This document shows positions 348 through 50,566 of a stretch of DNA of 64,000 nt, piece by piece. Source of the DNA: Candidatus Nomurabacteria bacterium. Its GTDB lineage: Bacteria > Patescibacteriota > Minisyncoccia > Phycocordibacterales > UBA1006. Each line of letters opens with the position of its first letter. Position 1 is the stretch's first letter. The DNA is taken from positions 45,673 to 109,672 of the forward strand of contig JACKGA010000001.1 of the NCBI GenBank assembly GCA_020632195.1, written 5' to 3'. A program made the translations under genes and the position numbers. The notes beneath the pieces are model-generated. The model was not told the DNA's origin, made no database searches, and saw only the letters and a list, made by a program, of their open reading frames with translations.

Positions 348-375
348 TGTCATCCCCGCGGGGGCGTGGATCCAT
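348..375. repeat. Hairpin repeat copy a (TGTC ATCC-stem-loop-stem-GGAT CCA family)
   Basis: tgtcatccccgcgggggcgtggatcca: the conserved TGTCATCC and GGATCCA flanks around a GC stem, lying just upstream of the helicase start. Confidence 0.55.
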
Positions 376-12274: not shown

Positions 12275-12323
12275 TGGATCCCAGATATTTTCTCCACGTT
12301 GCTTTGAAAATTCTGGGATGACA
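12275..12323. repeat. Hairpin repeat copy c (long-loop variant)
   Basis: tggatcccaga-[tattttctccacgttgctttgaaaat]-tctgggatgaca, a near-duplicate of copy b at 905..953. Confidence 0.65.
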
Positions 12324-33755: not shown

Positions 33756-33884
33756 TGTGCTTTCAAGCTCTGTTGTACGCCACAACACGAACCCTGCTCT
33801 GTGTGTCATCCCAGATAGAGCGACGAGATACGATGAGCGAAAGCCTGAGAGCCATCATTAGTTATATTTCTGACTTAGAATGAA

Positions 33885-33995
33885 GAACCCCGATGCAGAG
33901 CAGTCGGGGTATCTTTTTGGGTTCGCTCATTGCTCACTCTATGTTTTATTCCGAGGCAGAGCCTCGGGGAATATCACCGAGAAGATTGAAGATGA
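33885..33995. repeat. ~105-nt structured repeat, copy X1
   Basis: About 85 percent identical to 47655..47765. It contains the hairpins ccccga-tgcagagcag-tcgggg, ccgagg-cagag-cctcgg and ctcgg-ggaatatcac-cgag. Confidence 0.7.
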
Positions 33996-34017
33996 ACGTA
34001 CTCTAGAAAATTTAAAA

Positions 34018-34044
34018 TGGATCCCTGTTTTCGCAGGGATGACA
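34018..34044. repeat. Hairpin repeat copy e
   Basis: tggatccctg-ttttcg-cagggatgaca, directly downstream of the polA stop. Confidence 0.65.
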
Positions 34045-38310: not shown

Positions 38311-38337
38311 TGTCATCCCCGCGTAGGCGGGGACCCA
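38311..38337. repeat. Hairpin repeat copy f
   Basis: tgtcatccccgc-gtag-gcggggaccca, in the divergent intergenic region. Confidence 0.6.
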
Positions 38338-38408
38338 TCTCAATGTTTCCACTATCTCCTTTTTTGTCAGTCTGAATTTATTTTAGGATATATGATAAAA
38401 TTAAACAC

Positions 38409-42555: not shown

Positions 42556-45336
42556 TTAGTTCTGTGATCCATCAAACGGAGCTGGGCGATACACTGTATA
42601 GTCTGGTGTATTGACTGCCTGTGGGGCAGCAGCATGTGCTTGTGGAAGGTTAGCCGGTGCCTGAGCTACAGGAGCTGGGGCATACATTGGCTGTACTGGG
42701 TGCATAGGCTGCATAGGCGCTGCAGGCATCATGTATTGTGGTTGGTGATACATAGGAGCCTGTGCGTATGCTGGCGCATATGCGTATCCATATGATGATC
42801 CTTCGGCACGCTTACCCTGTACATAGAAGTAACGAGCAGCGAGGAGAAGGAGAGCGAGGAGAAGAAGCGTAAGCAACCATCCCCATACACTCGTAAAGAA
42901 TCCTGAGAGAAATGCTGATGCAGATCCGAATCCGATAGCAGCATCATATACTTGGTCGAAGTCGAATTCGATAGCGGTGTCCTGAATACCATTACCGACA
43001 CCGTCACCACCGAGGTTTGCTTCTACGACGACTGCCTGTCCAATATTCGCACCTGGGCGTACACGAACAGTAATCATCATATCTCCCTTTTCTTCTGATT
43101 CAATATCACCAAGATCAATGATCACTGAATGTTCTGTTTTACCTGTATACGTACCACGAGTTGTTGAAAGAAATTCAAGTTCTTTTGCAAGTTTTACATC
43201 AAGGATTGCATCTTCGAAGTCTTGCTTACAGAGGTTTTCCCATTCAACTTCATATACCAATGTCTGTCCGCGGGTTACTCCTTCAACATTGTTGGTAAGG
43301 TTCAAAGCAATACATCCGAGACCAGAACCTGCTTCAAGAGTATTTGAGGTAATCGTTGTAGCAGTATTGGTGTTTACACGAGTAACGGTAGAGGTATTTG
43401 ATGAAACCGTAGAGATCACACGTCCAGGAGTACGGAATGATTCAAAGTCTCCGTATACTGGGATGCCGTTACAGTATCCGACAGCTCGTACATAGTAGGT
43501 CACTCCTGGAGTCAATCCAGAAATTGATTCACGCATGATTCCACTATTGTTTCCACGTGTGACAATACCTGTCGAAACATTCATATTTGAAGTACTGGTT
43601 CCTATCAAGAATTGAGTAGAGAAAGCGCTACAACCATTTGCATTGTATCCAGCGTTCAAAACAGCTGAAGTACCAGTCACTGATGATTCAGGAAGGGTTA
43701 CCACGATAGGATTTACTACTGAGTCAACACCATTGTTTCCTGGCTGGTCGATAGTCACAACTTGGTAGTCAGTATCAGTAACAAATTTTTCTACATCACC
43801 ACATTCCAATGTATCGTCATTATTTTCATCTTCGTACTCAACACAGATACGGAAGTAGTATGTTTCATTCGTATCAAGTCCAGTAACCGTTTTGCGGTAA
43901 TCTTCGTCACCATCAAGGTCGCTGTCAACTCTTACTTTACGGATGTCTTGCCCATCGTTGTCAACATCGCTATAGGTGTCGAAATCATTATCAACATCTT
44001 CAATGTCATTCTTGTTCTGTCCGTATACAAAGAATACAACACCGTTATCAAAGTCATTCATGTCTACTGAACCATTAAGTTTTGCAGAGTCTTCATCAAC
44101 ATCCTCGGCATCATCAGTATCAGCTTTTGGTTCATCATTATTATTGTGAGAACCAGAACTTACATCTACGGATACGTTATCACTTGCTGAAAGACCATAG
44201 TTGTTGGTACAAGTAATTTCAAAATTAGTATCTTCATTAAGTGAATAGGTGTCACTATTGCTTGATGTATAAATACCTGTTTTTCCATCGAAGTAACTCA
44301 AGTTTGGAGTTGCATCATAGATACAGTGATCAGCATTAGTAATTGTCCATGTCACTACTACATTGTCTCCTTCCTGAATAGTACTATCGTTCACAGTAAT
44401 ATCTACCGTTGGCGCAGTGCCCTGATTTCCTCCATTGCTTGTTACGGTAAGCTGGTGAGTATCCTGTACTGGCGTACCATCAAGTCCGATACAATTTGCA
44501 GTAAAGCTATAGGTACCAGCAGAAAGAACATATGAAGATGAGCCAGTAGTTCCAGAGTTGTTGTTCCATTGAGAAACAGTAGGAGAAGAAGTGAAAGTAC
44601 AAGTCGAAACATCATTAGAATTCCAAGAAACATTTGCAGAAGTACCTGCAGGCACTGTAGATGTCCCAGAGACATTTACTGATGGGTTGTAGGTAGGAGC
44701 AGGCGTGTCATTACCGATCTTGAAAATAGCAGTAATGTATACGTAATCACCAATACCGATAGGCTGATTGATATTTTGTCCTGAGCTACCAAACATAGCA
44801 GTGCTGGTAGAGAATGTCCCACTATCTACAGCATTCCCATTATCATAATATACTTCATGATATCGAATATAACTCACAGTCTGGTCTATTCCAGAAATAT
44901 CAAAACCAACTCCGTCATATTCTGTAGAACCTCCATTGTCAGAAAGAGTAACTCCAAAGTCTACTCCTGACTGTGCTGTAGAAGAATTAGGGTTAAAACC
45001 GGTCACCTTAAAGTTTGGACTGGTCATTACTTGGTTACCAATATTCTTCAGTTTGATACGTAGGTTGATAGTATCTCCGGCATTGGCAGTAATATCATTT
45101 TTATTCCAACACAATTCGTATTGGGAATTTGATACAACACCGTATCCACTCGTGTGGTTACCGATTTGGGCCAGAGCACATTCATTAGATGAGTTACCGG
45201 CATCTTGGTTATAACCCAAAGAGCCATTGGCAAACTGTCCCGCTGCAAATGCAGTCGAAACAGAAACCATAGCAATCGCAACGACAGCAAAGGCTGCAAC
45301 AGCGATATATGAGATTGTTTTCATAACGTTTTTCAT
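42556..45336 (-). CDS. large cell-surface protein (926 aa) with signal peptide, repeated beta-rich domains, C-terminal transmembrane anchor and Tyr/Pro/Ala-rich cytoplasmic tail
   Basis: N-terminal MKNVMKTISYIAVAAFAVVAIAMVSVSTAFA and multiple T/S/N-rich Ig-like segments. The C-terminal transmembrane segment FFTSVWGWLLTLLLLALLLLAA is followed by YGYAYAPAYAQAPMYHQPQYMMPAAPMQPMHPVQPMYAPAP. Confidence 0.7.
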   Translation of the reverse strand: MKNVMKTISYIAVAAFAVVAIAMVSVSTAFAAGQFANGSLGYNQDAGNSSNECALAQIGNHTSGYGVVSNSQYELCWNKNDITANAGDTINLRIKLKNIGNQVMTSPNFKVTGFNPNSSTAQSGVDFGVTLSDNGGSTEYDGVGFDISGIDQTVSYIRYHEVYYDNGNAVDSGTFSTSTAMFGSSGQNINQPIGIGDYVYITAIFKIGNDTPAPTYNPSVNVSGTSTVPAGTSANVSWNSNDVSTCTFTSSPTVSQWNNNSGTTGSSSYVLSAGTYSFTANCIGLDGTPVQDTHQLTVTSNGGNQGTAPTVDITVNDSTIQEGDNVVVTWTITNADHCIYDATPNLSYFDGKTGIYTSSNSDTYSLNEDTNFEITCTNNYGLSASDNVSVDVSSGSHNNNDEPKADTDDAEDVDEDSAKLNGSVDMNDFDNGVVFFVYGQNKNDIEDVDNDFDTYSDVDNDGQDIRKVRVDSDLDGDEDYRKTVTGLDTNETYYFRICVEYEDENNDDTLECGDVEKFVTDTDYQVVTIDQPGNNGVDSVVNPIVVTLPESSVTGTSAVLNAGYNANGCSAFSTQFLIGTSTSNMNVSTGIVTRGNNSGIMRESISGLTPGVTYYVRAVGYCNGIPVYGDFESFRTPGRVISTVSSNTSTVTRVNTNTATTITSNTLEAGSGLGCIALNLTNNVEGVTRGQTLVYEVEWENLCKQDFEDAILDVKLAKELEFLSTTRGTYTGKTEHSVIIDLGDIESEEKGDMMITVRVRPGANIGQAVVVEANLGGDGVGNGIQDTAIEFDFDQVYDAAIGFGSASAFLSGFFTSVWGWLLTLLLLALLLLAARYFYVQGKRAEGSSYGYAYAPAYAQAPMYHQPQYMMPAAPMQPMHPVQPMYAPAPVAQAPANLPQAHAAAPQAVNTPDYTVYRPAPFDGSQN

Positions 45337-45837
45337 AATAATGTATAAAAATAATAATTTGGAATAATGATGTTAATTAAACGACTTATTTCTTAATTAA
45401 CACAGTAATTATAGCACAATGGTATAAAAATGTCAAGCATTTAGCAAGACCCTCACCGGCCGAGTTGGCCAGCGTTATACGATGCTCTGATTCCTGTATC
45501 AACTAAACGTCTCCCTCACAACATAGTGGAGAGTGGTGTATATACGTCAATTATGCGCTTTTCTTTCGTAAAGATATGAGAGAATAGCGTAGTATCGCTT
45601 ATTTATAACGAATACAACCACATTTTCTTACAGAACGCAAGTGTTTTTCTTTATTTGTTAAAAAATTTTCCTCGCATCCGCGAGAACATTCCCCTTTCGT
45701 TCGAGATTCGATCAGAAAAATGATCAAATGCCGAATAAAGAGTGGGATCACCAACAGGGATCCCAACTTTAAAACTTTTTACATAACCCAGGGTATCTAC
45801 TCTCATATGATATGATTTCGATACCCTATAAATAACC

Positions 45838-46698
45838 CTACTCCCCAAAGCTTCCGGAAACCCCGCCAGCGCTAGAGCCGGCGCCCTGGCTTCCGGAAAC
45901 CCCACCATTTTCTCCTGAACCATATGATCCAGGTACTCCACCACCATTTGTTGGCGTGTAAATAGTAGGTTGAGGGTTCGAACCACCTTGCGGTACGTAT
46001 ACCGTGTTGGTGGTTTTTCCCCAATCTTTGGAGATTAGTCCTGAGACTACTCCTCCAACAATTGGGCCGACCCAAGATCCAGCGGCAGCCCATTTCTGGG
46101 CTTTGTTGGCGCCTTGTGGTTGTGTTTGTACATAAATCACTTGCGGCTGAGTCGACTGGGTTTCAGGTGTTTTTTTGGCCTGAAACAGATCTATCTTTGG
46201 AAGCGGTTTGATATCGCTTCCGCAGCCACAATCCGCTGGGGCTGGAGCTGGGGTTTCAGTAAATCTTTTTCCCAAATTGATACAGAAATTTGTACCAATC
46301 TTGAAAGAAACCTTGCTCCAGCTTTCATCTTGCGAAAGCCGGTATTCAAAAATTCTTATACCGGCATTTAGATAGCCGGCAGAAAAAATTATTCCGTCCT
46401 TAACCCCATGGTTAAGGATTTTTTCCCCAGCCTGTACGCTTCTGATGCGTACATTTTGAGAAATATTTGGCGACCCTACTGCAGCCACCAATCTACTCCA
46501 TTCCGCCTGTCCAATTTCTTGGATCAGTGCAGTCTGGGTAGACTGCGGCATGCCACCTACCCATGCTTTAAAAGCGCGAATAGTGTCACCATTGTTTGCA
46601 TTCAGCAAATCCCAGCCCCATGGGTTAAATTCCCCAGAAGCTTTAGAATTTAAGAAAAAAAACAATGTACATACGATTAAAAAATTTATTTTTTTCAT
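45838..46698 (-). CDS. secreted Gly-rich hypothetical protein, paralog A
   Basis: Signal peptide. It shares FKAW, AGYLNAGIR, KIGTNFCINLGKR and a C-terminal GGGVPGS...G-rich tail with the 48685..49752 gene. Confidence 0.6.
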   Translation of the reverse strand: MKKINFLIVCTLFFFLNSKASGEFNPWGWDLLNANNGDTIRAFKAWVGGMPQSTQTALIQEIGQAEWSRLVAAVGSPNISQNVRIRSVQAGEKILNHGVKDGIIFSAGYLNAGIRIFEYRLSQDESWSKVSFKIGTNFCINLGKRFTETPAPAPADCGCGSDIKPLPKIDLFQAKKTPETQSTQPQVIYVQTQPQGANKAQKWAAAGSWVGPIVGGVVSGLISKDWGKTTNTVYVPQGGSNPQPTIYTPTNGGGVPGSYGSGENGGVSGSQGAGSSAGGVSGSFGE

Positions 46699-46953
46699 GA
46701 TTTTATGTTTTTGTGCCCATTTCTGAGCGATTTTTAGAATAAAAACATGACCCCTCGCGGATCATGTCCGGCGAATTGGGGTAAAAAACTACTTTTTTAA
46801 CCTTGATTCTCCACTATTATAACATACTCTTTGACAAAAAGCAAGTCTTATTGTATAAATATCTCTAGAAAACCCAAAAATCAACCTGGTTTCTTGTCGT
46901 CTTGAGCTTTACCATCGCTCGTTCTGGTGTCTCATACACTGATAATACGAGCT

Positions 46954-46978
46954 TTGTCCTCCTGAACGTGTTTCAGAA
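46954..46978. repeat. Hairpin repeat copy k1 (degenerate) / first unit of a 2-copy direct repeat
   Basis: ttgtcctcctgaa-cgtgt-ttcagaat. Its 25-nt core is identical to 47006..47030. Confidence 0.55.
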
Positions 46979-47005
46979 TTTAAGTATCCTCTCATCATCT
47001 ACTCT

Positions 47006-47034
47006 TTGTCCTCCTGAACGTGTTTCAGGATCCA
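47006..47034. repeat. Hairpin repeat copy k2
   Basis: ttgtcctcctgaa-cgtgt-ttcaggatcca. Confidence 0.6.
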
Positions 47035-47124
47035 TGGTACTACAGATATTCTCGTGTCTATTGGGAATTCAGCTCATGGTATGAAATATCTTTTCTATCT
47101 CTTTGTTGAACTCTCTTGGATCTC

Positions 47125-47151
47125 TGGATCCCGATTGTCATCGGGATGACA
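47125..47151. repeat. Hairpin repeat copy g
   Basis: tggatcccga-ttgtca-tcgggatgaca. Confidence 0.65.
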
Positions 47152-47205
47152 AGCATTTGTTTGTTTTTAATTGGGTGTTTATAATCCTTCTATTATATTT
47201 ATGTT

Positions 47206-47614
47206 TGTCATCCTGACGCATGTCAGGATCCATACAACTCCAAAGATAATTTGATATACTAGGAATATTACCCATTATTGAAGACTGTGTAATATGAATC
47301 ATAGAGAATACTATGTATACATTATGTGCAACAAAGCTCGTGGCACCTTGTATATAGGCGTTACAAACAATATAGAAGTGCGCGTGCAACAACATCAACA
47401 AGGAAAAGGCAGTGTCTTTACTGCAAAATACCAACTCTATAGACTTGTATATTATGAATCCTTTCAATACATTGATCAGGCAATTATGAGAGAGAAGCAG
47501 CTTAAAAATTGGAGAAGACAATGGAAGATTAATCTTATCGAAGAATATAATCCAATATGGCGAGATCTCAGCTATGAATGGTTTTATGGATCCTGAAATA
47601 AATTCAGGATGACA
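47206..47614 (+). mobile_element. candidate compact mobile cassette: GIY-YIG nuclease gene flanked by 27-bp inverted hairpin repeats
   Basis: The left end is tgtcatcctgacgcatgtcaggatcca (47206..47232). The right end is tggatcctgaaataaattcaggatgaca (47587..47614). Its reverse complement matches the left end except in the loop. The ORF's stop codon lies inside the right repeat. Confidence 0.45.
47294..47596 (+). CDS. GIY-YIG nuclease superfamily protein (100 aa; COG2827/UPF0213-like)
   Basis: MNHREYYVYIMCNKARGTLYIGVTNNIEVRVQQHQQGKG...: GIY-YIG core (YVYIM..GTLYIGVTNN), conserved Arg, His-Gln-x-Gly and a distal Glu/Asn. The terminal codons gga tcc tga sit inside the hairpin repeat. Confidence 0.8.
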   Translation: MNHREYYVYIMCNKARGTLYIGVTNNIEVRVQQHQQGKGSVFTAKYQLYRLVYYESFQYIDQAIMREKQLKNWRRQWKINLIEEYNPIWRDLSYEWFYGS

Positions 47615-47654
47615 AATGAGAAGAATAATGTGTATTCCAAAATATACAGTAAGA

Positions 47655-47765
47655 CTGGAGAAACAACCTCGATGCAAAGCAGTCGAGGTATATTATTGAG
47701 TTCTCTACTTGCTCACTTCTTGTTTTATTCCGAGGCAGAGACTCGAGGAATATCATCGAGAAGAT
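47655..47765. repeat. ~105-nt structured repeat, copy X2
   Basis: Aligns base-for-base with 33885..33995, with compensatory stem changes (cctcga...tcgagg versus ccccga...tcgggg). Confidence 0.7.
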
Positions 47766-47796
47766 TAAACATAAGCTAAAAGCATAAAGTAAAAAA

Positions 47797-47830
47797 TAAC
47801 CAACAAAAAACACCCAGCAACATGTGGGTG
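47797..47830 (-). terminator. Rho-independent terminator downstream of the Tyr/Asn-rich secreted protein gene
   Basis: Minus strand: acaccca-catgttgc-tgggtgt followed by tttttgtt. Confidence 0.55.
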
Positions 47831-47856
47831 TATTTGGCAGGTAAGAAATGACCAAA

Positions 47857-48432
47857 CTATTTTAGCGAAATCCACTCGAGCGGACACCACTGCCTATTCT
47901 GCTGATACCAGCGATCATAGGTGGGACGCGTATTGAATGCAAAACTCGCCTGTAAAAAAAATTTTGCCCCGTTTACCACAATGGTGGCCTTAGGGTTAGA
48001 TCCTCCCATATAGTAGCCCTGATTACCATAGTAGTAATGATACGGGCTGTAATATCGGTAGCCATACTGTTGGTTGTAGTATGGATACACAATATACGGT
48101 GCAACAGGCACTACATTCGTATTACTATTGTTATTGTTGTTGTAATAGTAATAGTTATTTGTAGTTGTGCTTGGAGTCACTGCTTGATTCCCAGGATTAT
48201 AATAAACATCATCATAATGTTTATTATCTCCATGTGAATCGTCAGAAGACTCTTCATCTTCTCGCCCCGGGCAATCCCAACAATCCTCTACAGAATAATC
48301 ATCCACAGTGGGAGGATTAGTCGTAGGAATAGATATCGTAGATGCTACTGGAATTCCATTAGCATTATACGAAACCTGTGCTTGGGCAATTCCTGCGCAC
48401 AGTAAAAATAATACAAAAAATATATATCTCAT
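47857..48432 (-). CDS. secreted Tyr/Asn-rich low-complexity protein (191 aa)
   Basis: Signal peptide MRYIFFVLFLLCAGIAQAQ, then YYYYNNNNNSN and YYSPYHYYYGNQGYY tracts. Confidence 0.5.
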   Translation of the reverse strand: MRYIFFVLFLLCAGIAQAQVSYNANGIPVASTISIPTTNPPTVDDYSVEDCWDCPGREDEESSDDSHGDNKHYDDVYYNPGNQAVTPSTTTNNYYYYNNNNNSNTNVVPVAPYIVYPYYNQQYGYRYYSPYHYYYGNQGYYMGGSNPKATIVVNGAKFFLQASFAFNTRPTYDRWYQQNRQWCPLEWISLK

Positions 48433-48563
48433 GTCTCATTGGTTTTTAGTTGTTAAAATAAAAAATATCATGAATATTAAACCATACTTTGATTAAAAAA
48501 GCAAGTTTTTAGAAAGGTCCGACCATCGATATCCCTAGAACTAGGTTTCGTATGGGGCGATTC

Positions 48564-48590
48564 TGGATCCCCGTTTTCACGGGGATGACA
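48564..48590. repeat. Hairpin repeat copy j
   Basis: tggatccccg-ttttca-cggggatgaca. Confidence 0.65.
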
Positions 48591-48684
48591 GGGGTTTGGG
48601 TTTACTATAAGAATCAAGTTTTTGCACAAACAAAAATACAGGCCCCAAAAGGTTCCTGTATTTTAGATGTAATTGTCAAAAATT

Positions 48685-49752
48685 TTACTGAATATGTACC
48701 TTTACTTTTGGCAACATATTTTGAAAAAATTTCCCGTCACCAATGGTTGTTGTAATCCCAACAGTAAAACCTACTGTTGGTTTATACACCTGGTTTTGGC
48801 TTATATTTATCTCTTCCGCTTGGGGTTCGATAAACATAATTGATGTTGTGTTCGTTGGCGTCATTGTGGGTTGGGTTGTTGCATTTATTGGTGCTCCGTC
48901 CCATTTTCCACCGCCAAAACTACCTGGAGTACCACCAGTTTCATCAGCAAAAGTTCCGCCATCCTCCGATCCTGGAACTCCTCCGCCTCCAGTATTGACC
49001 ACAACAGGCGGTTGTGGGTCCCCTGTAGGAGTGGTTGTTGTAGTAGTAGATTTTGATTTGCCTTTTATTTGGGTCAAACCATAAATACCAGCGCCAAGGA
49101 CTCCAGCCCCGCCAATTCCCGCAAAAGTATAGCCGATGATTTTTCCGGCTTTGCCTTTTGTCTTGTAATTGGTTGTCCCATTATTGCCACCTTGGTCAAA
49201 ATCCCACGACTCTACCTTGATCTCAGGTTCATCGGTGGAATAATCTGCCGGTGGATTAACAATACTGGGCTTGTTATTACCATTACAGCAACAACAGTTG
49301 TTCGGCTGTTGATTATACTCATACCCATTCGGGTTTGAGGGCTGTTTTGGTGATTGTGGAATATCCTTTTTTAAAGGATTAAAACACCAATTGTCGCCCA
49401 GTTTTGCAATTGGGATCGCAACGGTGTTGTTATCCATCGCCCACCAAATACACTCTGTCCCAGCAATAAGCTGAGACGAGTATGTATAACCTTCTTCCCT
49501 GATACCGTGATTCAGGTATCCTGCCGGAGCAGGTCCTACACTGAATACACCACGGCCGGCTTTGATATCATCCCAGGCTGGGCCTAGGATTTTGCGATAT
49601 CCAGCATCAACTTTAGCTGGGCACATTTTCGCCCAAGCTTTGAATTCGGTAATCGGGTCTTTCCCCGGGGTTTTTCCCCTTTTGTAAAATTCCTGTGCTG
49701 ACACTGATGCGAAAGCCAAGAATGTAATCATTAGAAAAAATATATTTTTCAT
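48685..49752 (-). CDS. secreted Gly-rich hypothetical protein, paralog B
   Basis: Signal peptide. The motifs FKAW, AGYLNHGIR, KLGDNWCFNPLKK and GGGGVPGS are shared with paralog A. It also has a CCCC cluster. Confidence 0.6.
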   Translation of the reverse strand: MKNIFFLMITFLAFASVSAQEFYKRGKTPGKDPITEFKAWAKMCPAKVDAGYRKILGPAWDDIKAGRGVFSVGPAPAGYLNHGIREEGYTYSSQLIAGTECIWWAMDNNTVAIPIAKLGDNWCFNPLKKDIPQSPKQPSNPNGYEYNQQPNNCCCCNGNNKPSIVNPPADYSTDEPEIKVESWDFDQGGNNGTTNYKTKGKAGKIIGYTFAGIGGAGVLGAGIYGLTQIKGKSKSTTTTTTPTGDPQPPVVVNTGGGGVPGSEDGGTFADETGGTPGSFGGGKWDGAPINATTQPTMTPTNTTSIMFIEPQAEEINISQNQVYKPTVGFTVGITTTIGDGKFFQNMLPKVKVHIQ

Positions 49753-49789
49753 TTGAATCTCCTTTTTTGTTTAAAATTTAAAAAATTGT

Positions 49790-50383
49790 TTAGTTTTCGC
49801 GAATAGTTTCGCCTTGGATTGTGGTTTCTTTGAGATTTTTTTGTTTCTCTTTAGAATCCACTTCGTGCTGGGCGACCCAATTCAGAGTAATGGCCCCTAA
49901 TTTGATAAAGGTAACTTTTTGGGTTTCTTTATCATAGTAGCCGTAGAATTTATACTCCTTGGTTGAGGAGTATGCACTGGGCTTCCAGGCAAGAATAATC
50001 TCTTCCCCTTCATCTTCAGCCCACAAAATCAACAGTAATCCATCTTGTTCACCATAGAAAACGCCAGAAGTCCCAGCGCATAGCGCAACTGAGGTTACCT
50101 CTTGTTTTTTCTCCTCTACATACACACCGTCAACGTATTTTTTTGCTCCGGGTGTAGTTTTGGTGATCTTAAAGCCAATATTGGCTGACGGAATGTACTC
50201 GATTTTATTCAAGTATCCGTCATGGAAAGTTTTGTCCGCCACTGTGAATGCACGGTAGCCCGGCATTTTGGCATACTTGTTGGGCGGGCATTTCTTTTGG
50301 TCGCCCGTCACTTGAGTACTTTTACAATTTGTTAAAGAAAACAAAATGAAAGACACGAATGAAAATAATACTAATTTTTTCAT
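49790..50383 (-). CDS. hypothetical lipoprotein
   Basis: MKKLVLFSFVSFILFSLTNC: a signal peptide with an L-T-N-C lipobox. The start is taken at this ATG and not at the upstream track start. Confidence 0.55.
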   Translation of the reverse strand: MKKLVLFSFVSFILFSLTNCKSTQVTGDQKKCPPNKYAKMPGYRAFTVADKTFHDGYLNKIEYIPSANIGFKITKTTPGAKKYVDGVYVEEKKQEVTSVALCAGTSGVFYGEQDGLLLILWAEDEGEEIILAWKPSAYSSTKEYKFYGYYDKETQKVTFIKLGAITLNWVAQHEVDSKEKQKNLKETTIQGETIREN

Positions 50384-50566
50384 GATAATAATTTTTTTTA
50401 GTTTACAAATAAATAAAAAGCCCGACACCCCGGGCAACGGGATGTTGAGTTGTTTTTTATTTTTTAACTCATTTGCGCAGAGTATAACATAGCATGCTTG
50501 ACTTGTAAAGTCTTTTTTGCTATAATTGTGGAGAAATAAAATTTAAAAAACAAAAAAATTATTATT

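What the first reader, a model, noticed from the sequence alone, without database searches (positions are those of the whole stretch)
46954..47232. Hotspot of stacked hairpin-repeat insertions plus a 25-nt direct duplication upstream of the GIY-YIG gene
Four hairpin copies sit within 280 bp at 46954, 47006, 47125 and 47206, and they alternate in orientation. The copies at 46954 and 47006 share an identical 25-nt core (ttgtcctcctgaacgtgtttcag), spaced 52 nt apart. Such clustering is typical of repeat elements that insert preferentially into or beside existing copies, and it marks this intergenic region as recombinationally active.
Basis: seen in the sequence. Interest (0 to 1): 0.55.

Follow-up and report, generated by a model that had tools for sequence, protein, structure and literature searches.

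The report
Hairpin repeats of an Ssn nuclease
The clustered hairpins are the recognition repeats of the small GIY-YIG nuclease gene beside them, a single-strand-DNA cutting system (Ssn/SRM) described in 2025, seen here in a candidate-phyla bacterium where the gene and repeats look like an inserted cassette.

Summary
The hairpins are real and far beyond chance. Each has the form TGTC, an 8-bp palindrome starting AT, a 4-6 nt loop, then CCA. That matches the CGTC/TGTC-tagged REP class (Di Nocera 2013), called NTS/SRM by Chenal et al. 2025. SRMs are the ssDNA recognition hairpins of Ssn, a family of ~94-100 aa single-domain GIY-YIG endonucleases.

The adjacent ORF (47294-47596) belongs to this family. 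It is 48% identical (E 2e-27) to the NTS-flanked 94-aa N. gonorrhoeae ssnA-type protein and keeps the catalytic Tyr, Tyr and Glu. It is bracketed by inverted SRMs, the downstream one supplying its stop codon.

In 80 homologous loci from many phyla, 48 show the same bracket, and repeat density within 100 nt of the gene is about 100 times background.

New here: two other CPR genomes share only the SRM-gene-SRM cassette, with homology ending at the outer SRM ends. A syntenic locus in a distant relative lacks the gene and all repeats.

Verdict: a new member of a known system. Interest is modest, with useful hints that the cassette is mobile.

The parts
46955..46979 (+). SRM copy A, decayed. It has TGTC and the 5' arm, but the 3' arm carries G>A and the GGATCCA flank is lost.
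   Evidence: (DNA fold -2.6 kcal/mol, 5-bp stem), alignment A4
47007..47034 (+). SRM copy B: TGTC-CTCCTGAA-CGTGT-TTCAGGAT-CCA. It shares the GTCC variant and the loop with A.
   Evidence: -5.3 kcal/mol
47125..47151 (-). SRM copy C (stem ATCCCGAT), head-to-head with D
   Evidence: I2; -7.6 kcal/mol
47206..47232 (+). SRM copy D, the left terminal hairpin (SRM-L) of the ssnA cassette: TGTC-ATCCTGAC-GCAT-GTCAGGAT-CCA
   Evidence: -8.7 kcal/mol, z -4.7. Homology with L082 and L086 starts here.
47233..47293 (+). Conserved leader of the cassette, with a -10-like TGATATACT (a TG precedes it in the window and in L082, not in L086)
   Evidence: alignment A3. One promoter-like consensus match at 47251-47278. 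Promoter function is inferred.
47294..47596 (+). ssnA-like gene: a 100-aa single-domain GIY-YIG nuclease of the Ssn family
   Evidence: Pfam PF01541 E 1.4e-17. 48% identity, E 2e-27, to the NTS-flanked 94-aa N. gonorrhoeae protein. Y9, Y20 and E67 align with Y6, Y17 and E64.
47587..47614 (-). SRM copy E, the right terminal hairpin (SRM-R). It encodes the last codons and the TGA stop of ssnA. Its outer 13 nt are perfectly complementary to those of SRM-L.
   Evidence: I7: TTTGTCATCCTGA / TCAGGATGACAAA; -6.2 kcal/mol
46860..47800 (.). Block of about 940 nt (spacer, copies A-C, cassette, 115-nt element) that has no counterpart in the syntenic locus L087/L091
   Evidence: (homology resumes at 46859)
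348..374 (+). Solo SRM with an imperfect GC-rich stem
12275..12323 (-). Solo SRM with a 30-nt loop
   Evidence: -9.7 kcal/mol
34018..34044 (-). Solo SRM just 3' of polA
38311..38338 (+). Solo SRM that matches the published SRM search pattern
48563..48590 (-). Solo SRM that matches the published SRM search pattern. It lies in the 355-aa/191-aa spacer and is absent from the L091 orthologous spacer.

Best explanation
The four hairpins are copies of an Ssn-related motif (SRM, the same class as the CGTC/TGTC-tagged REPs and Neisseria NTS/dRS3). The GIY-YIG gene beside them is their cognate nuclease, an Ssn-family site-specific single-stranded-DNA endonuclease.

Mechanism, as shown for four homologues in PMC11893778 and inferred here. 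When DNA is single-stranded (incoming transforming DNA, replication, repair), the strand reading GTC-palindrome-C folds into a hairpin. Ssn binds the hairpin together with its 3' C and 5' GTC, and cuts that strand a few nucleotides 5' of the motif. dsDNA, RNA and the complementary strand are not cut.

In the window, copy D and copy E are the inverted terminal hairpins of a 411-nt cassette (about 47204-47614, with flanking A/T to 47616). The cassette consists of SRM-L, a 61-nt leader, the gene, and SRM-R, which supplies the stop codon. Copies A, B and C are extra solo copies made locally: A and B by duplication, and C as a head-to-head partner of D. The whole block appears to be a lineage-specific insertion between two conserved genes for secreted proteins.

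The tags lie at the outer ends of the cassette, so the predicted cuts fall just outside both ends on opposite strands. That is where homology between cassettes in different genomes stops. This step is inference.
For: Repeat anatomy and statistics.

Gene. PF01541 single domain, 100 aa. tblastn E 1e-17 and BLASTP E 2e-27, 48% identity, to the only homologue in an N. gonorrhoeae chromosome. That homologue is a 94-aa ORF flanked by canonical NTS (CCGTCATTCCCGCGCAGGCGGGAATCTAG) and carries Y6, Y17 and E64, the residues mutated in Nm SsnA. The window equivalents Y9, Y20 and E67 are invariant in 25 homologues.

Family-wide association. Of 80 loci from Flavobacteriia, Alphaproteobacteria, Saccharimonadales, Ignavibacteria, Bdellovibrionales, Omnitrophota and other groups, 48 have an upstream (+) and a downstream (-) copy within 300 nt, and 68 have at least one. 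Density is 4-7 per kb within 100 nt against about 0.04 per kb beyond 2 kb. The 7-nt arms of the two flanking copies are identical in 30 of 48 loci, against 8.7% between loci.

Literature. PMC11893778 gives the biochemistry, the NTS-ssnA-NTS architecture and the effect on transformation. PMC3733652 describes the TGTC tag, 8-9 bp stems starting AT, 4-5 nt loops, the CCA tail and head-to-head dimers.

Cassette and insertion. Homology among the window, L082 and L086 (72-79% protein identity, different neighbours) starts at TTGTCATCC and ends at GGATGACAAA. The syntenic trio in L087/L091 lacks the gene and all SRMs. Bradyrhizobium L017 and L040 share 89.7% identity only from -48 to +84 around the gene.
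Against: No biochemistry exists for this protein, so cleavage and strand specificity are extrapolated from enzymes 46-48% identical.

Only 2 of the 10 window copies, and none of the four in the finding, match the published degenerate SRM search pattern, because their stems are AT-richer (CCTGAC, CCTGAA).

Stems differ between window copies. In Nm, changing the palindrome while keeping the hairpin abolished activity. One enzyme may therefore not serve all copies, and no second ssn gene is present in the window.

The empty-site comparison is with a distant relative (38-41% protein identity; the middle gene matches only at E 4e-4), so loss there rather than gain here is not excluded.

The only near-identical assembly (L001) shows no variation.

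CDD cd10448 membership could not be run.
Confidence: 0.85

Rival explanations
1. This is a generic hotspot of replication slippage or recombination between palindromes. The repeats multiply by insertion next to one another, and the GIY-YIG gene is an unrelated neighbour.
For: A and B are a local duplication 52 nt apart sharing a private substitution. The loops of some copies carry insertions.
Against: The same repeat class brackets homologous genes in 48 of 80 loci from many phyla at about 100 times background density, and arm sequences match within each locus. Published biochemistry links the protein family to the motif.
Confidence: 0.05
2. The hairpins act at the RNA level or in transcription, as intrinsic terminators, mRNA-stabilising 3' structures or a cis-regulatory leader of the GIY-YIG gene, like classical views of REP elements.
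For: All copies are intergenic. Some lie just 3' of genes in sense orientation (34018 after polA, 48563 after the 355-aa gene). Stems covary. Di Nocera 2013 proposed RNA roles for many REPs.
Against: None of the SRMs is followed by a T-run. The four terminator-like sites found in 46600-47900 all lie elsewhere. Copies occur in both orientations relative to flanking genes. There is no Rfam family. Nm SsnA does not bind RNA, whereas the asymmetric GTC and C flanks that are conserved here are the ssDNA recognition determinants.
Confidence: 0.05
3. The gene is a classical GIY-YIG homing endonuclease or a restriction-like dsDNA nuclease, and the hairpins are its double-stranded target or terminal inverted repeats of an ordinary transposon.
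For: The cassette is bounded by inverted repeats and sits in different contexts. GIY-YIG enzymes include homing endonucleases. The weak T5orf172 and TIGR01453 hits point the same way.
Against: The protein is 100 aa, catalytic domain only, with no DNA-binding extension. There is no intron or intein context. The closest characterised relatives do not cut dsDNA. There is no transposase. The TIGR01453 score of 17.9 is far below the cut-off of 56.
Confidence: 0.05

Closest known systems
Ssn nucleases with NTS/SRM repeats (Chenal et al. 2025, Nat Commun 16:2388; PMC11893778)
   Same: A single-domain GIY-YIG protein of about 94-100 aa with the conserved Tyr, Tyr and Glu. The hairpin repeat has a 5' GTC, a palindrome and a 3' C. 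The gene is bracketed by inverted repeats (NTS-ssnA-NTS). The repeats are intergenic and clustered, here among genes for secreted or surface proteins, as in Neisseria.
   Different: The host is a CPR bacterium (Candidatus Nomurabacteria). Text searches of the paper for 'Patescibacteria' and 'Candidate' found nothing. Stems are AT-richer and ATCC-based, so 8 of 10 copies escape the published SRM search pattern. The downstream repeat supplies the stop codon. Activity is untested.
CGTC/TGTC-tagged REPs (Di Nocera et al. 2013, BMC Genomics 14:522; PMC3733652), including Neisseria dRS3 and Rickettsia RPE-4 and RPE-6
   Same: The TGTC tag, the 8-bp stem whose first two pairs are A-T and T-A, loops of 4-5 nt, the CCA tail and a head-to-head dimer (C/D).
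   Different: That paper found no dedicated enzyme for the class and did not include CPR. In the window the cognate gene is adjacent.
REP/RAYT and REPIN systems (GTAG REPs with an IS200/IS605-like Y1 transposase)
   Same: It works alike in outline. A single-copy nuclease gene is bracketed by its own palindromic repeats, which are recognised as ssDNA hairpins, and the repeats are dispersed intergenically and form dimers.
   Different: The repeats have no GTAG tag. The enzyme is a GIY-YIG hydrolytic nuclease, not a HUH/Y1 transposase, so it has no known strand-transfer chemistry.
Neisseria intergenic mosaic elements (NIME) and enterobacterial BIME
   Same: Several hairpin repeats in mixed orientation are separated by 50-120 nt spacers within one intergenic region.
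   Different: The array is small (4-5 copies). The spacers are not repeated elsewhere in the window, apart from one 115-nt element.

Membership tests
Ssn (cd10448) GIY-YIG ssDNA endonucleases | Small single-domain GIY-YIG protein (about 94 aa in Nm) | tested here: met
   100 aa. PF01541 covers residues 6-80 with E 1.4e-17, and there is no other domain.
Ssn (cd10448) GIY-YIG ssDNA endonucleases | Homology to SsnA at E < 1e-10 (the paper's criterion) | tested here: met
   tblastn E 1e-17 and BLASTP E 2e-27 at 48% identity, against the 94-aa NTS-flanked N. gonorrhoeae protein. The Nm protein itself was not available. The Ng ORF has the same length and the same Y6/Y17/E64 numbering as Nm SsnA.
Ssn (cd10448) GIY-YIG ssDNA endonucleases | Catalytic residues equivalent to Y6, Y17 and E64 | tested here: met
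   Y9, Y20 and E67 align and are invariant in A2.
Ssn (cd10448) GIY-YIG ssDNA endonucleases | Assignment to CDD cd10448 rather than cd10456 (UPF0213) | not testable with these tools
   There is no CDD search. The UPF0213 structures 1zg2 and 1ywl match only weakly (E 7e-7 and 6e-4), against 1e-17 to the Neisseria protein.
Ssn (cd10448) GIY-YIG ssDNA endonucleases | Site-specific cleavage of ssDNA only, 5' of the motif | not testable with these tools
   This needs purified protein and oligonucleotides.
SRM / NTS repeats | Match to the published pattern HGTCWYN(0-2)YYVSBRHN(0-5)WNVSBRGN(0-2)RNCYNB | tested here: not met
   Only 38311-38338 and 48563-48590 match (2 against 0.16 in shuffles). Copies A-E fail at 'YYVSBRH' because of their CCTGA stems. 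The pattern is a search heuristic, not a functional definition.
SRM / NTS repeats | Oriented hairpin: 5' GTC, then a palindrome, then a 3' C directly after it | tested here: met
   Nine of ten window copies fit; copy A lacks the 3' C. In Nm these positions govern cutting and binding.
SRM / NTS repeats | Flanks the ssn gene on both sides and is enriched in the genome | tested here: met
   Copies D (+) and E (-) flank the gene. The strict motif occurs 7 times against 0.71 expected. Five of ten copies lie within 660 nt of the gene.
CGTC/TGTC-tagged REPs | Tag CGTC or TGTC, 8-9 bp stem beginning AT, loop of 4-5 nt, tail CCA | tested here: met
   Alignment A4 compared with the description in PMC3733652. 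Loops are 4-6 nt, and the CCA tail is present in 8 of the 9 copies in A4 (all but the decayed copy A).
REP/RAYT (REPIN) | GTAG tag and an adjacent Y1/HUH transposase | tested here: not met
   The tag is TGTC and the bracketed gene is GIY-YIG.
Intrinsic terminators | GC-rich stem followed by a T-run | tested here: not met
   The terminator-like sites in 46600-47900 lie at 46743-46769, 47409-47424, 47666-47689 and 47810-47831. None coincides with an SRM.
GIY-YIG homing endonucleases | Catalytic domain plus a C-terminal DNA-binding domain, in an intron or free-standing phage context | tested here: not met
   The protein is 100 aa with the catalytic domain only. TIGR01453 scores 17.9 bits against a cut-off of 56.

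The most novel reading that the evidence does not exclude
The SRM-ssnA-SRM unit is an autonomous mobile element of a new mechanistic type. Its ends would be defined by Ssn cuts on opposite strands just outside the two outward-facing GTC tags. The solo hairpins and head-to-head dimers would be its non-autonomous progeny, a GIY-YIG analogue of REPIN/RAYT. The occupied sites in the window, L082 and L086, and the empty site in L087/L091, would then be the first comparative footprints of its movement. The 2025 paper raised this idea only as a hypothesis.
Probability: 0.3. Interest if true: 0.7.

Novelty: new member of a known kind. Interest (0 to 1): 0.35.

Why it matters
The finding is explained by a system published in 2025, so the cluster itself is not a discovery. 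Three points have some value.

1. The Ssn/SRM pairing extends to a CPR (Nomurabacteria) genome. Its AT-richer motif is missed by the published search pattern, so surveys based on that pattern undercount the system in low-GC lineages.

2. Precise cassette boundaries in three unrelated contexts, plus a syntenic empty site, give testable comparative support to the idea that SRM-ssnA-SRM moves as a unit.

3. CPR bacteria are thought to depend on DNA uptake (my own knowledge, not tested here). A nuclease that cuts incoming ssDNA at self-marked sites next to surface-protein genes would therefore be relevant to how these reduced genomes manage gene flow.

Tried and rejected
- My first fixed-spacing pattern search found nothing real because the spacing was wrong. 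A flank-only regex and a strict GTC-arm-arm-C scan replaced it.
- Rfam at gathering threshold gave only two tRNAs in the window. At E<=1 it gave one spurious miRNA hit across copies C and D.
- NCBIfam gave no family. The PDB had no Ssn structure, only weak UPF0213 matches.
- No supplementary files were held for the Ssn paper, so Nm SsnA itself could not be compared. A gonococcal chromosome mislabelled as a plasmid in PLSDB was used instead.
- L001 is the same sequence as the window, so it says nothing about conservation.
- The 286-aa neighbour has only two non-self homologues in 5.8 billion proteins. One of them gave the syntenic locus.
- A metagenome scan with the conserved 22-mer of the neighbour's leader returned only that same organism.
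- The neighbours of the L082 cassette have no counterparts in the window apart from a Peptidase_S51, so no reciprocal empty-site test was possible.
- I looked for longer shared units around the solo SRMs. None was found except a 115-nt element present twice.
- GC skew gives no replication-strand signal across the window. SRM strand use is 5:5.
- A literature search for follow-ups on Ssn found none.

Full report
**Observation**

The sequence at 46950-47240 holds four copies of one short hairpin element.
- Copy A: 46955-46979, + strand.
- Copy B: 47007-47034, + strand.
- Copy C: 47125-47151, - strand.
- Copy D: 47206-47232, + strand.

The quoted string has only 23 letters. Beyond the hairpin the two 52-nt units diverge, so this is not a tandem duplication of the whole unit.

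The element is asymmetric: 5' TGTC, an 8-bp palindrome beginning AT, a 4-6 nt loop, and 3' CCA. By that asymmetry the orientations are +,+,-,+, so they do not alternate. Copy A is decayed. Its 3' arm carries a G>A change and the GGATCCA flank is gone. As DNA it folds at only -2.6 kcal/mol, against -5.3 to -8.7 for B, C and D.

**Census in the window**

A flank-only regex and a strict scan for GTC, a 7-nt arm, 0-30 nt, the reverse-complement arm and C find further copies:
- 47587-47614 (-), which overlaps the stop codon of the GIY-YIG ORF;
- 348-374 (+);
- 12275-12323 (-), with a 30-nt loop;
- 34018-34044 (-);
- 38311-38338 (+);
- 48563-48590 (-).

All ten are intergenic, except that copy E overlaps the last codons of the GIY-YIG ORF. 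Five of the ten lie within 660 nt around the GIY-YIG gene. The strict motif occurs 7 times against 0.71 +/- 0.78 in 200 dinucleotide shuffles.

The stems differ between copies but stay complementary: CCTGAC/GTCAGG, CCCGAT/ATCGGG, CCCCGC/GCGGGG, CCCCGT/ACGGGG. On the nine-copy alignment A4, 87.5% of cells pair. Four of eight pairs have changes on both sides, and no shuffle out of 500 reaches the observed covariation. Sliding the partner column drops pairing to 18-51%.

**The neighbouring gene**

ORF 47294-47596 encodes 100 aa consisting only of a GIY-YIG catalytic domain (PF01541, E 1.4e-17). The exact protein is recorded by NCBI from a Candidatus Nomurabacteria bacterium.

Copy D lies 61 nt upstream in + orientation. 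Copy E lies in - orientation and provides the codons Y-G-S and the TGA stop. Their outer 13 nt, TTTGTCATCCTGA, are perfectly complementary (I7). The C-termini of many homologues are visibly repeat-encoded, for example MLKQVQHD, SEINSE and RNDK.

**Is the association general?**

I fetched 80 loci encoding homologues from Flavobacteriia, Bradyrhizobium and other Alphaproteobacteria, Saccharimonadales, Ignavibacteria, Bdellovibrionales, Omnitrophota, Coxiellaceae and others.
- By eye and by the strict scan, 48 of 80 have a + copy within 300 nt upstream and a - copy within 300 nt downstream. 68 of 80 have at least one.
- Density is 4-7 copies per kb per locus within 100 nt of the gene, against about 0.04 beyond 2 kb.
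- The stem sequence is genome-specific, but the two flanking copies of a locus agree. The 7-nt arm is identical in 30 of 48 loci, against 8.7% for pairs taken from different loci.
- 38 of 80 loci carry three or more copies within 500 nt. Stacking of hairpins next to this gene is therefore a family trait, not a peculiarity of this window.

**What is known**

A full-text search led to Chenal et al. 2025 (PMC11893778).

They show that the Neisseria dRS3 repeat is part of a longer oriented element, NTS (CGTCATTCCCGCGMAVGCGGGAATCYRG). NTS-like 'Ssn-related motifs' (SRM) flank homologues of NMV_0044 (ssnA), a 94-aa cd10448 GIY-YIG protein, across phyla: 71% of homologues have at least one SRM and 42% have one on both sides.

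Purified SsnA from four species binds the motif only as ssDNA and cuts a few nucleotides upstream of it. It does not cut dsDNA, RNA or the reverse strand. The C just after the palindrome matters most for binding, and the three nucleotides before the palindrome matter most for cutting. In N. meningitidis, SsnA lowers transformation by NTS-bearing DNA about five-fold.

The authors note that NTS-ssnA-NTS looks like an insertion sequence and resembles REP/RAYT. They propose domestication as a hypothesis.

Earlier, Di Nocera et al. 2013 (PMC3733652) catalogued the same repeats as CGTC-tagged REPs. They describe the tag as often TGTC, stems of 8-9 bp whose first two pairs are A-T and T-A, loops of 4-5 nt, a CCA tail, mostly head-to-head dimers, and 'no dedicated transposase'. 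The window element fits that description letter by letter, and C/D is a head-to-head dimer.

**Membership tests**

PLSDB, however, contains a 2.17-Mb N. gonorrhoeae chromosome labelled as a plasmid. Its single homologue is a 94-aa ORF flanked by canonical NTS. It carries Y6, Y17 and E64, the residues mutated in the paper.
- The window protein aligns to that ORF at 48% identity over 90 residues, E 2e-27 (tblastn 1e-17). Y9, Y20 and E67 sit at those positions, and all three are invariant among 25 homologues.
- The published degenerate SRM pattern matches only two window copies (38311 and 48563; 2 against 0.16 expected) and none of A-E. The AT-richer CCTGA stems violate its 'YYVSBRH' segment. I read this as a limit of a hand-made search pattern, since the functional determinants (GTC, palindrome, C) are present. 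Literal membership by that pattern is nevertheless not met, and I say so.
- CDD assignment and enzymatic activity could not be tested.

**New comparative evidence**

The closest homologues are P0003 (79% identity, L082) and P0004 (72%, L086). Both come from other CPR-like metagenome contigs with entirely different neighbouring genes: ExoX-like, RmuC and YqeY in L082.

Aligned with the window (A3), similarity begins at TTGTCATCC of the upstream hairpin. It continues through a conserved leader with a TATACT box and through the ORF. It ends at GGATGACAAA of the downstream hairpin, and both outer flanks are unrelated. The unit is therefore a discrete cassette of about 411 nt. In L082 and L086 the upstream hairpin carries 56-nt and 24-nt insertions in its loop.

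Elsewhere, Bradyrhizobium L017 and L040 share 89.7% identity only from -48 to +84 around the gene, while other Bradyrhizobium pairs are syntenic over 3 kb.

**An orthologous empty site**

The 286-aa neighbour has only two non-self homologues in the protein database. One of them, P0123, lies on contigs L087 and L091, which carry a syntenic trio of 369, 162 and 299 aa. These correspond to the window's 355-aa, 191-aa and 286-aa genes (E 3e-65, 4e-4 and 3.5e-52).

The non-coding leader of the 286-aa gene is 71% identical between the two. It holds a TTGCTT-17-TATAAT box and a hairpin with a T-run. This homology stops at window position 46859.

In L087/L091 the 162/299 spacer is 236 nt and holds neither a GIY-YIG gene nor any hairpin repeat. 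The window spacer is 1158 nt. The 369/162 spacer likewise lacks the copy that the window has at 48563-48590.

At shallow depth nothing can be said, because the only other assembly of this organism (L001) is 100% identical. Loss in the relative, rather than gain here, is not formally excluded.

**Mechanism, and what is shown versus inferred**

Shown here:
- the motif, its pairing and covariation;
- its enrichment;
- the bracket around the gene;
- homology of the protein to the NTS-flanked Neisseria protein and conservation of its catalytic residues;
- the cassette boundaries;
- the empty syntenic site.

Taken from the literature: ssDNA-only, oriented, site-specific cleavage 5' of the motif, and the reduction of transformation.

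Inferred:
- this protein cuts ssDNA next to copies B, D (top strand) and C, E (bottom strand);
- copy A, lacking the 3' C, is no longer bound;
- because the tags face outward in the cassette, the cuts fall just outside its ends, where homology breaks;
- the solo copies arose by local copying.

How a hydrolytic GIY-YIG nuclease without ligase or transposase chemistry would spread repeats is unknown.

**Rivals**

- Terminators: none of the SRMs has a T-run, and the four terminator-like sites nearby are elsewhere.
- RNA elements: there are no Rfam matches, the copies lie in both orientations relative to genes, and the conserved asymmetric flanks are ssDNA determinants.
- Classical homing endonuclease or transposon: the protein has the catalytic domain only, there is no transposase, and TIGR01453 scores far below its cut-off.
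- Generic slippage hotspot: this explains A/B but not the cross-phylum bracket.

**Verdict**

The finding is a genuine and correctly located repeat cluster. Its explanation is an already described system, so this is a new member (a CPR host with an AT-richer motif) of a known kind. Its residual interest lies in the cassette boundaries and the empty site, which bear on the open question of whether SRM-ssnA-SRM is mobile.

Noticed in passing
window 47662-47780 and 33883-34000: A second repeat of about 115 nt, 84% identical between its two copies. It has two to four predicted hairpins and two compensatory base-pair changes. Each copy lies 20-50 nt from an SRM. There is no Rfam match and no copy in the fetched loci. 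One of its hairpins (ATTCCGAG...CTCGGGGAAT) is dRS3-like but lacks the GTC tag.
   Followed up: partly
window 46699-46859 (- strand); L087 1706-1855: The 5' leader of the 286-aa secreted-protein gene is 71% identical to that of a homologue whose protein is only 41% identical. It holds a TTGCTT-17-TATAAT box followed by a conserved hairpin with a T-run (46743-46769) just before the start codon. It looks like an attenuator or another cis-regulatory leader.
   Followed up: partly
window 42556-50437: Five consecutive genes on the - strand (926, 286, 191, 355 and 215 aa) have signal-peptide-like N-termini and no Pfam domain. The 355/191/286 trio is syntenic in L087/L091. The 286-aa and 355-aa proteins are weak paralogues (E 0.003). 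SRMs sit in the spacers between them, which recalls the NTS clusters beside surface-protein genes in Neisseria.
   Followed up: partly
window 12275-12323; L082 5859-5938; L086 1727-1775: Some SRM hairpins carry long loops or insertions (30, 56 and 24 nt; the last is itself a GC-rich palindrome) while the stem and flanks stay intact. This fits the published finding that the loop is dispensable, and it suggests that loops are insertion sites.
   Followed up: no
L082 6001-6320: The closest homologue (P0003) has a premature stop (TGG TAG where the window has TGG CGA) 11 codons before the ancestral stop inside the downstream hairpin. The identical 89-aa product is nevertheless seen on 6 contigs from several samples.
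   Followed up: no
window 46871-46880 and about 47803-47814 (- strand reading): TTTTTGGGTT and TTTTTGTTGGTT lie near the two ends of the ~940-nt block absent from L087, which has a single TTTTTGGGTTATTTT after the upstream gene's terminator. This may be a target duplication, but the sequence is T-rich and the evidence is weak. The exact 10-mer occurs 3 times in the window against 0.4 expected.
   Followed up: partly
window-wide: The published degenerate SRM search pattern finds only 2 of the 10 copies in this 41% GC genome. AT-richer stems such as CCTGAC, and probably the flavobacterial GCTGAAC type, fall outside it, so pattern-based surveys undercount such lineages.
   Followed up: yes
window 348-374, 34018-34044, 38311-38338, 48563-48590 versus 46955-47614: There are two stem subfamilies in one genome. 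The copies around the gene have CCTGA or CCCGA stems, and the distant solo copies have CCC[CT]G stems. In Nm, changing the palindrome abolishes activity, and no second ssn gene is in the window. Whether one enzyme serves both subfamilies is unexplained.
   Followed up: no
L013 versus L022; L090: Two database oddities. The 'Candidatus Nitrotoga' contig L013 is about 90% identical over 1.8 kb to a Flavobacteriaceae contig (L022) and is probably mis-binned. PLSDB record NZ_CP119140.1, labelled a plasmid, is a 2.17-Mb N. gonorrhoeae chromosome.
   Followed up: no
L034 and L039 (Atrimonadaceae CP184673.1); L006 and L036 (Gelatiniphilus marinus): Some genomes carry two ssn paralogues. In G. marinus each has its own hairpin type (GTCATTCTGCGC... 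against GTCATTCCTGCG...). The two Atrimonadaceae copies lie 17 kb apart and are 85% identical over about 900 nt. This suggests matched enzyme-repeat pairs and duplication of the cassette.
   Followed up: no
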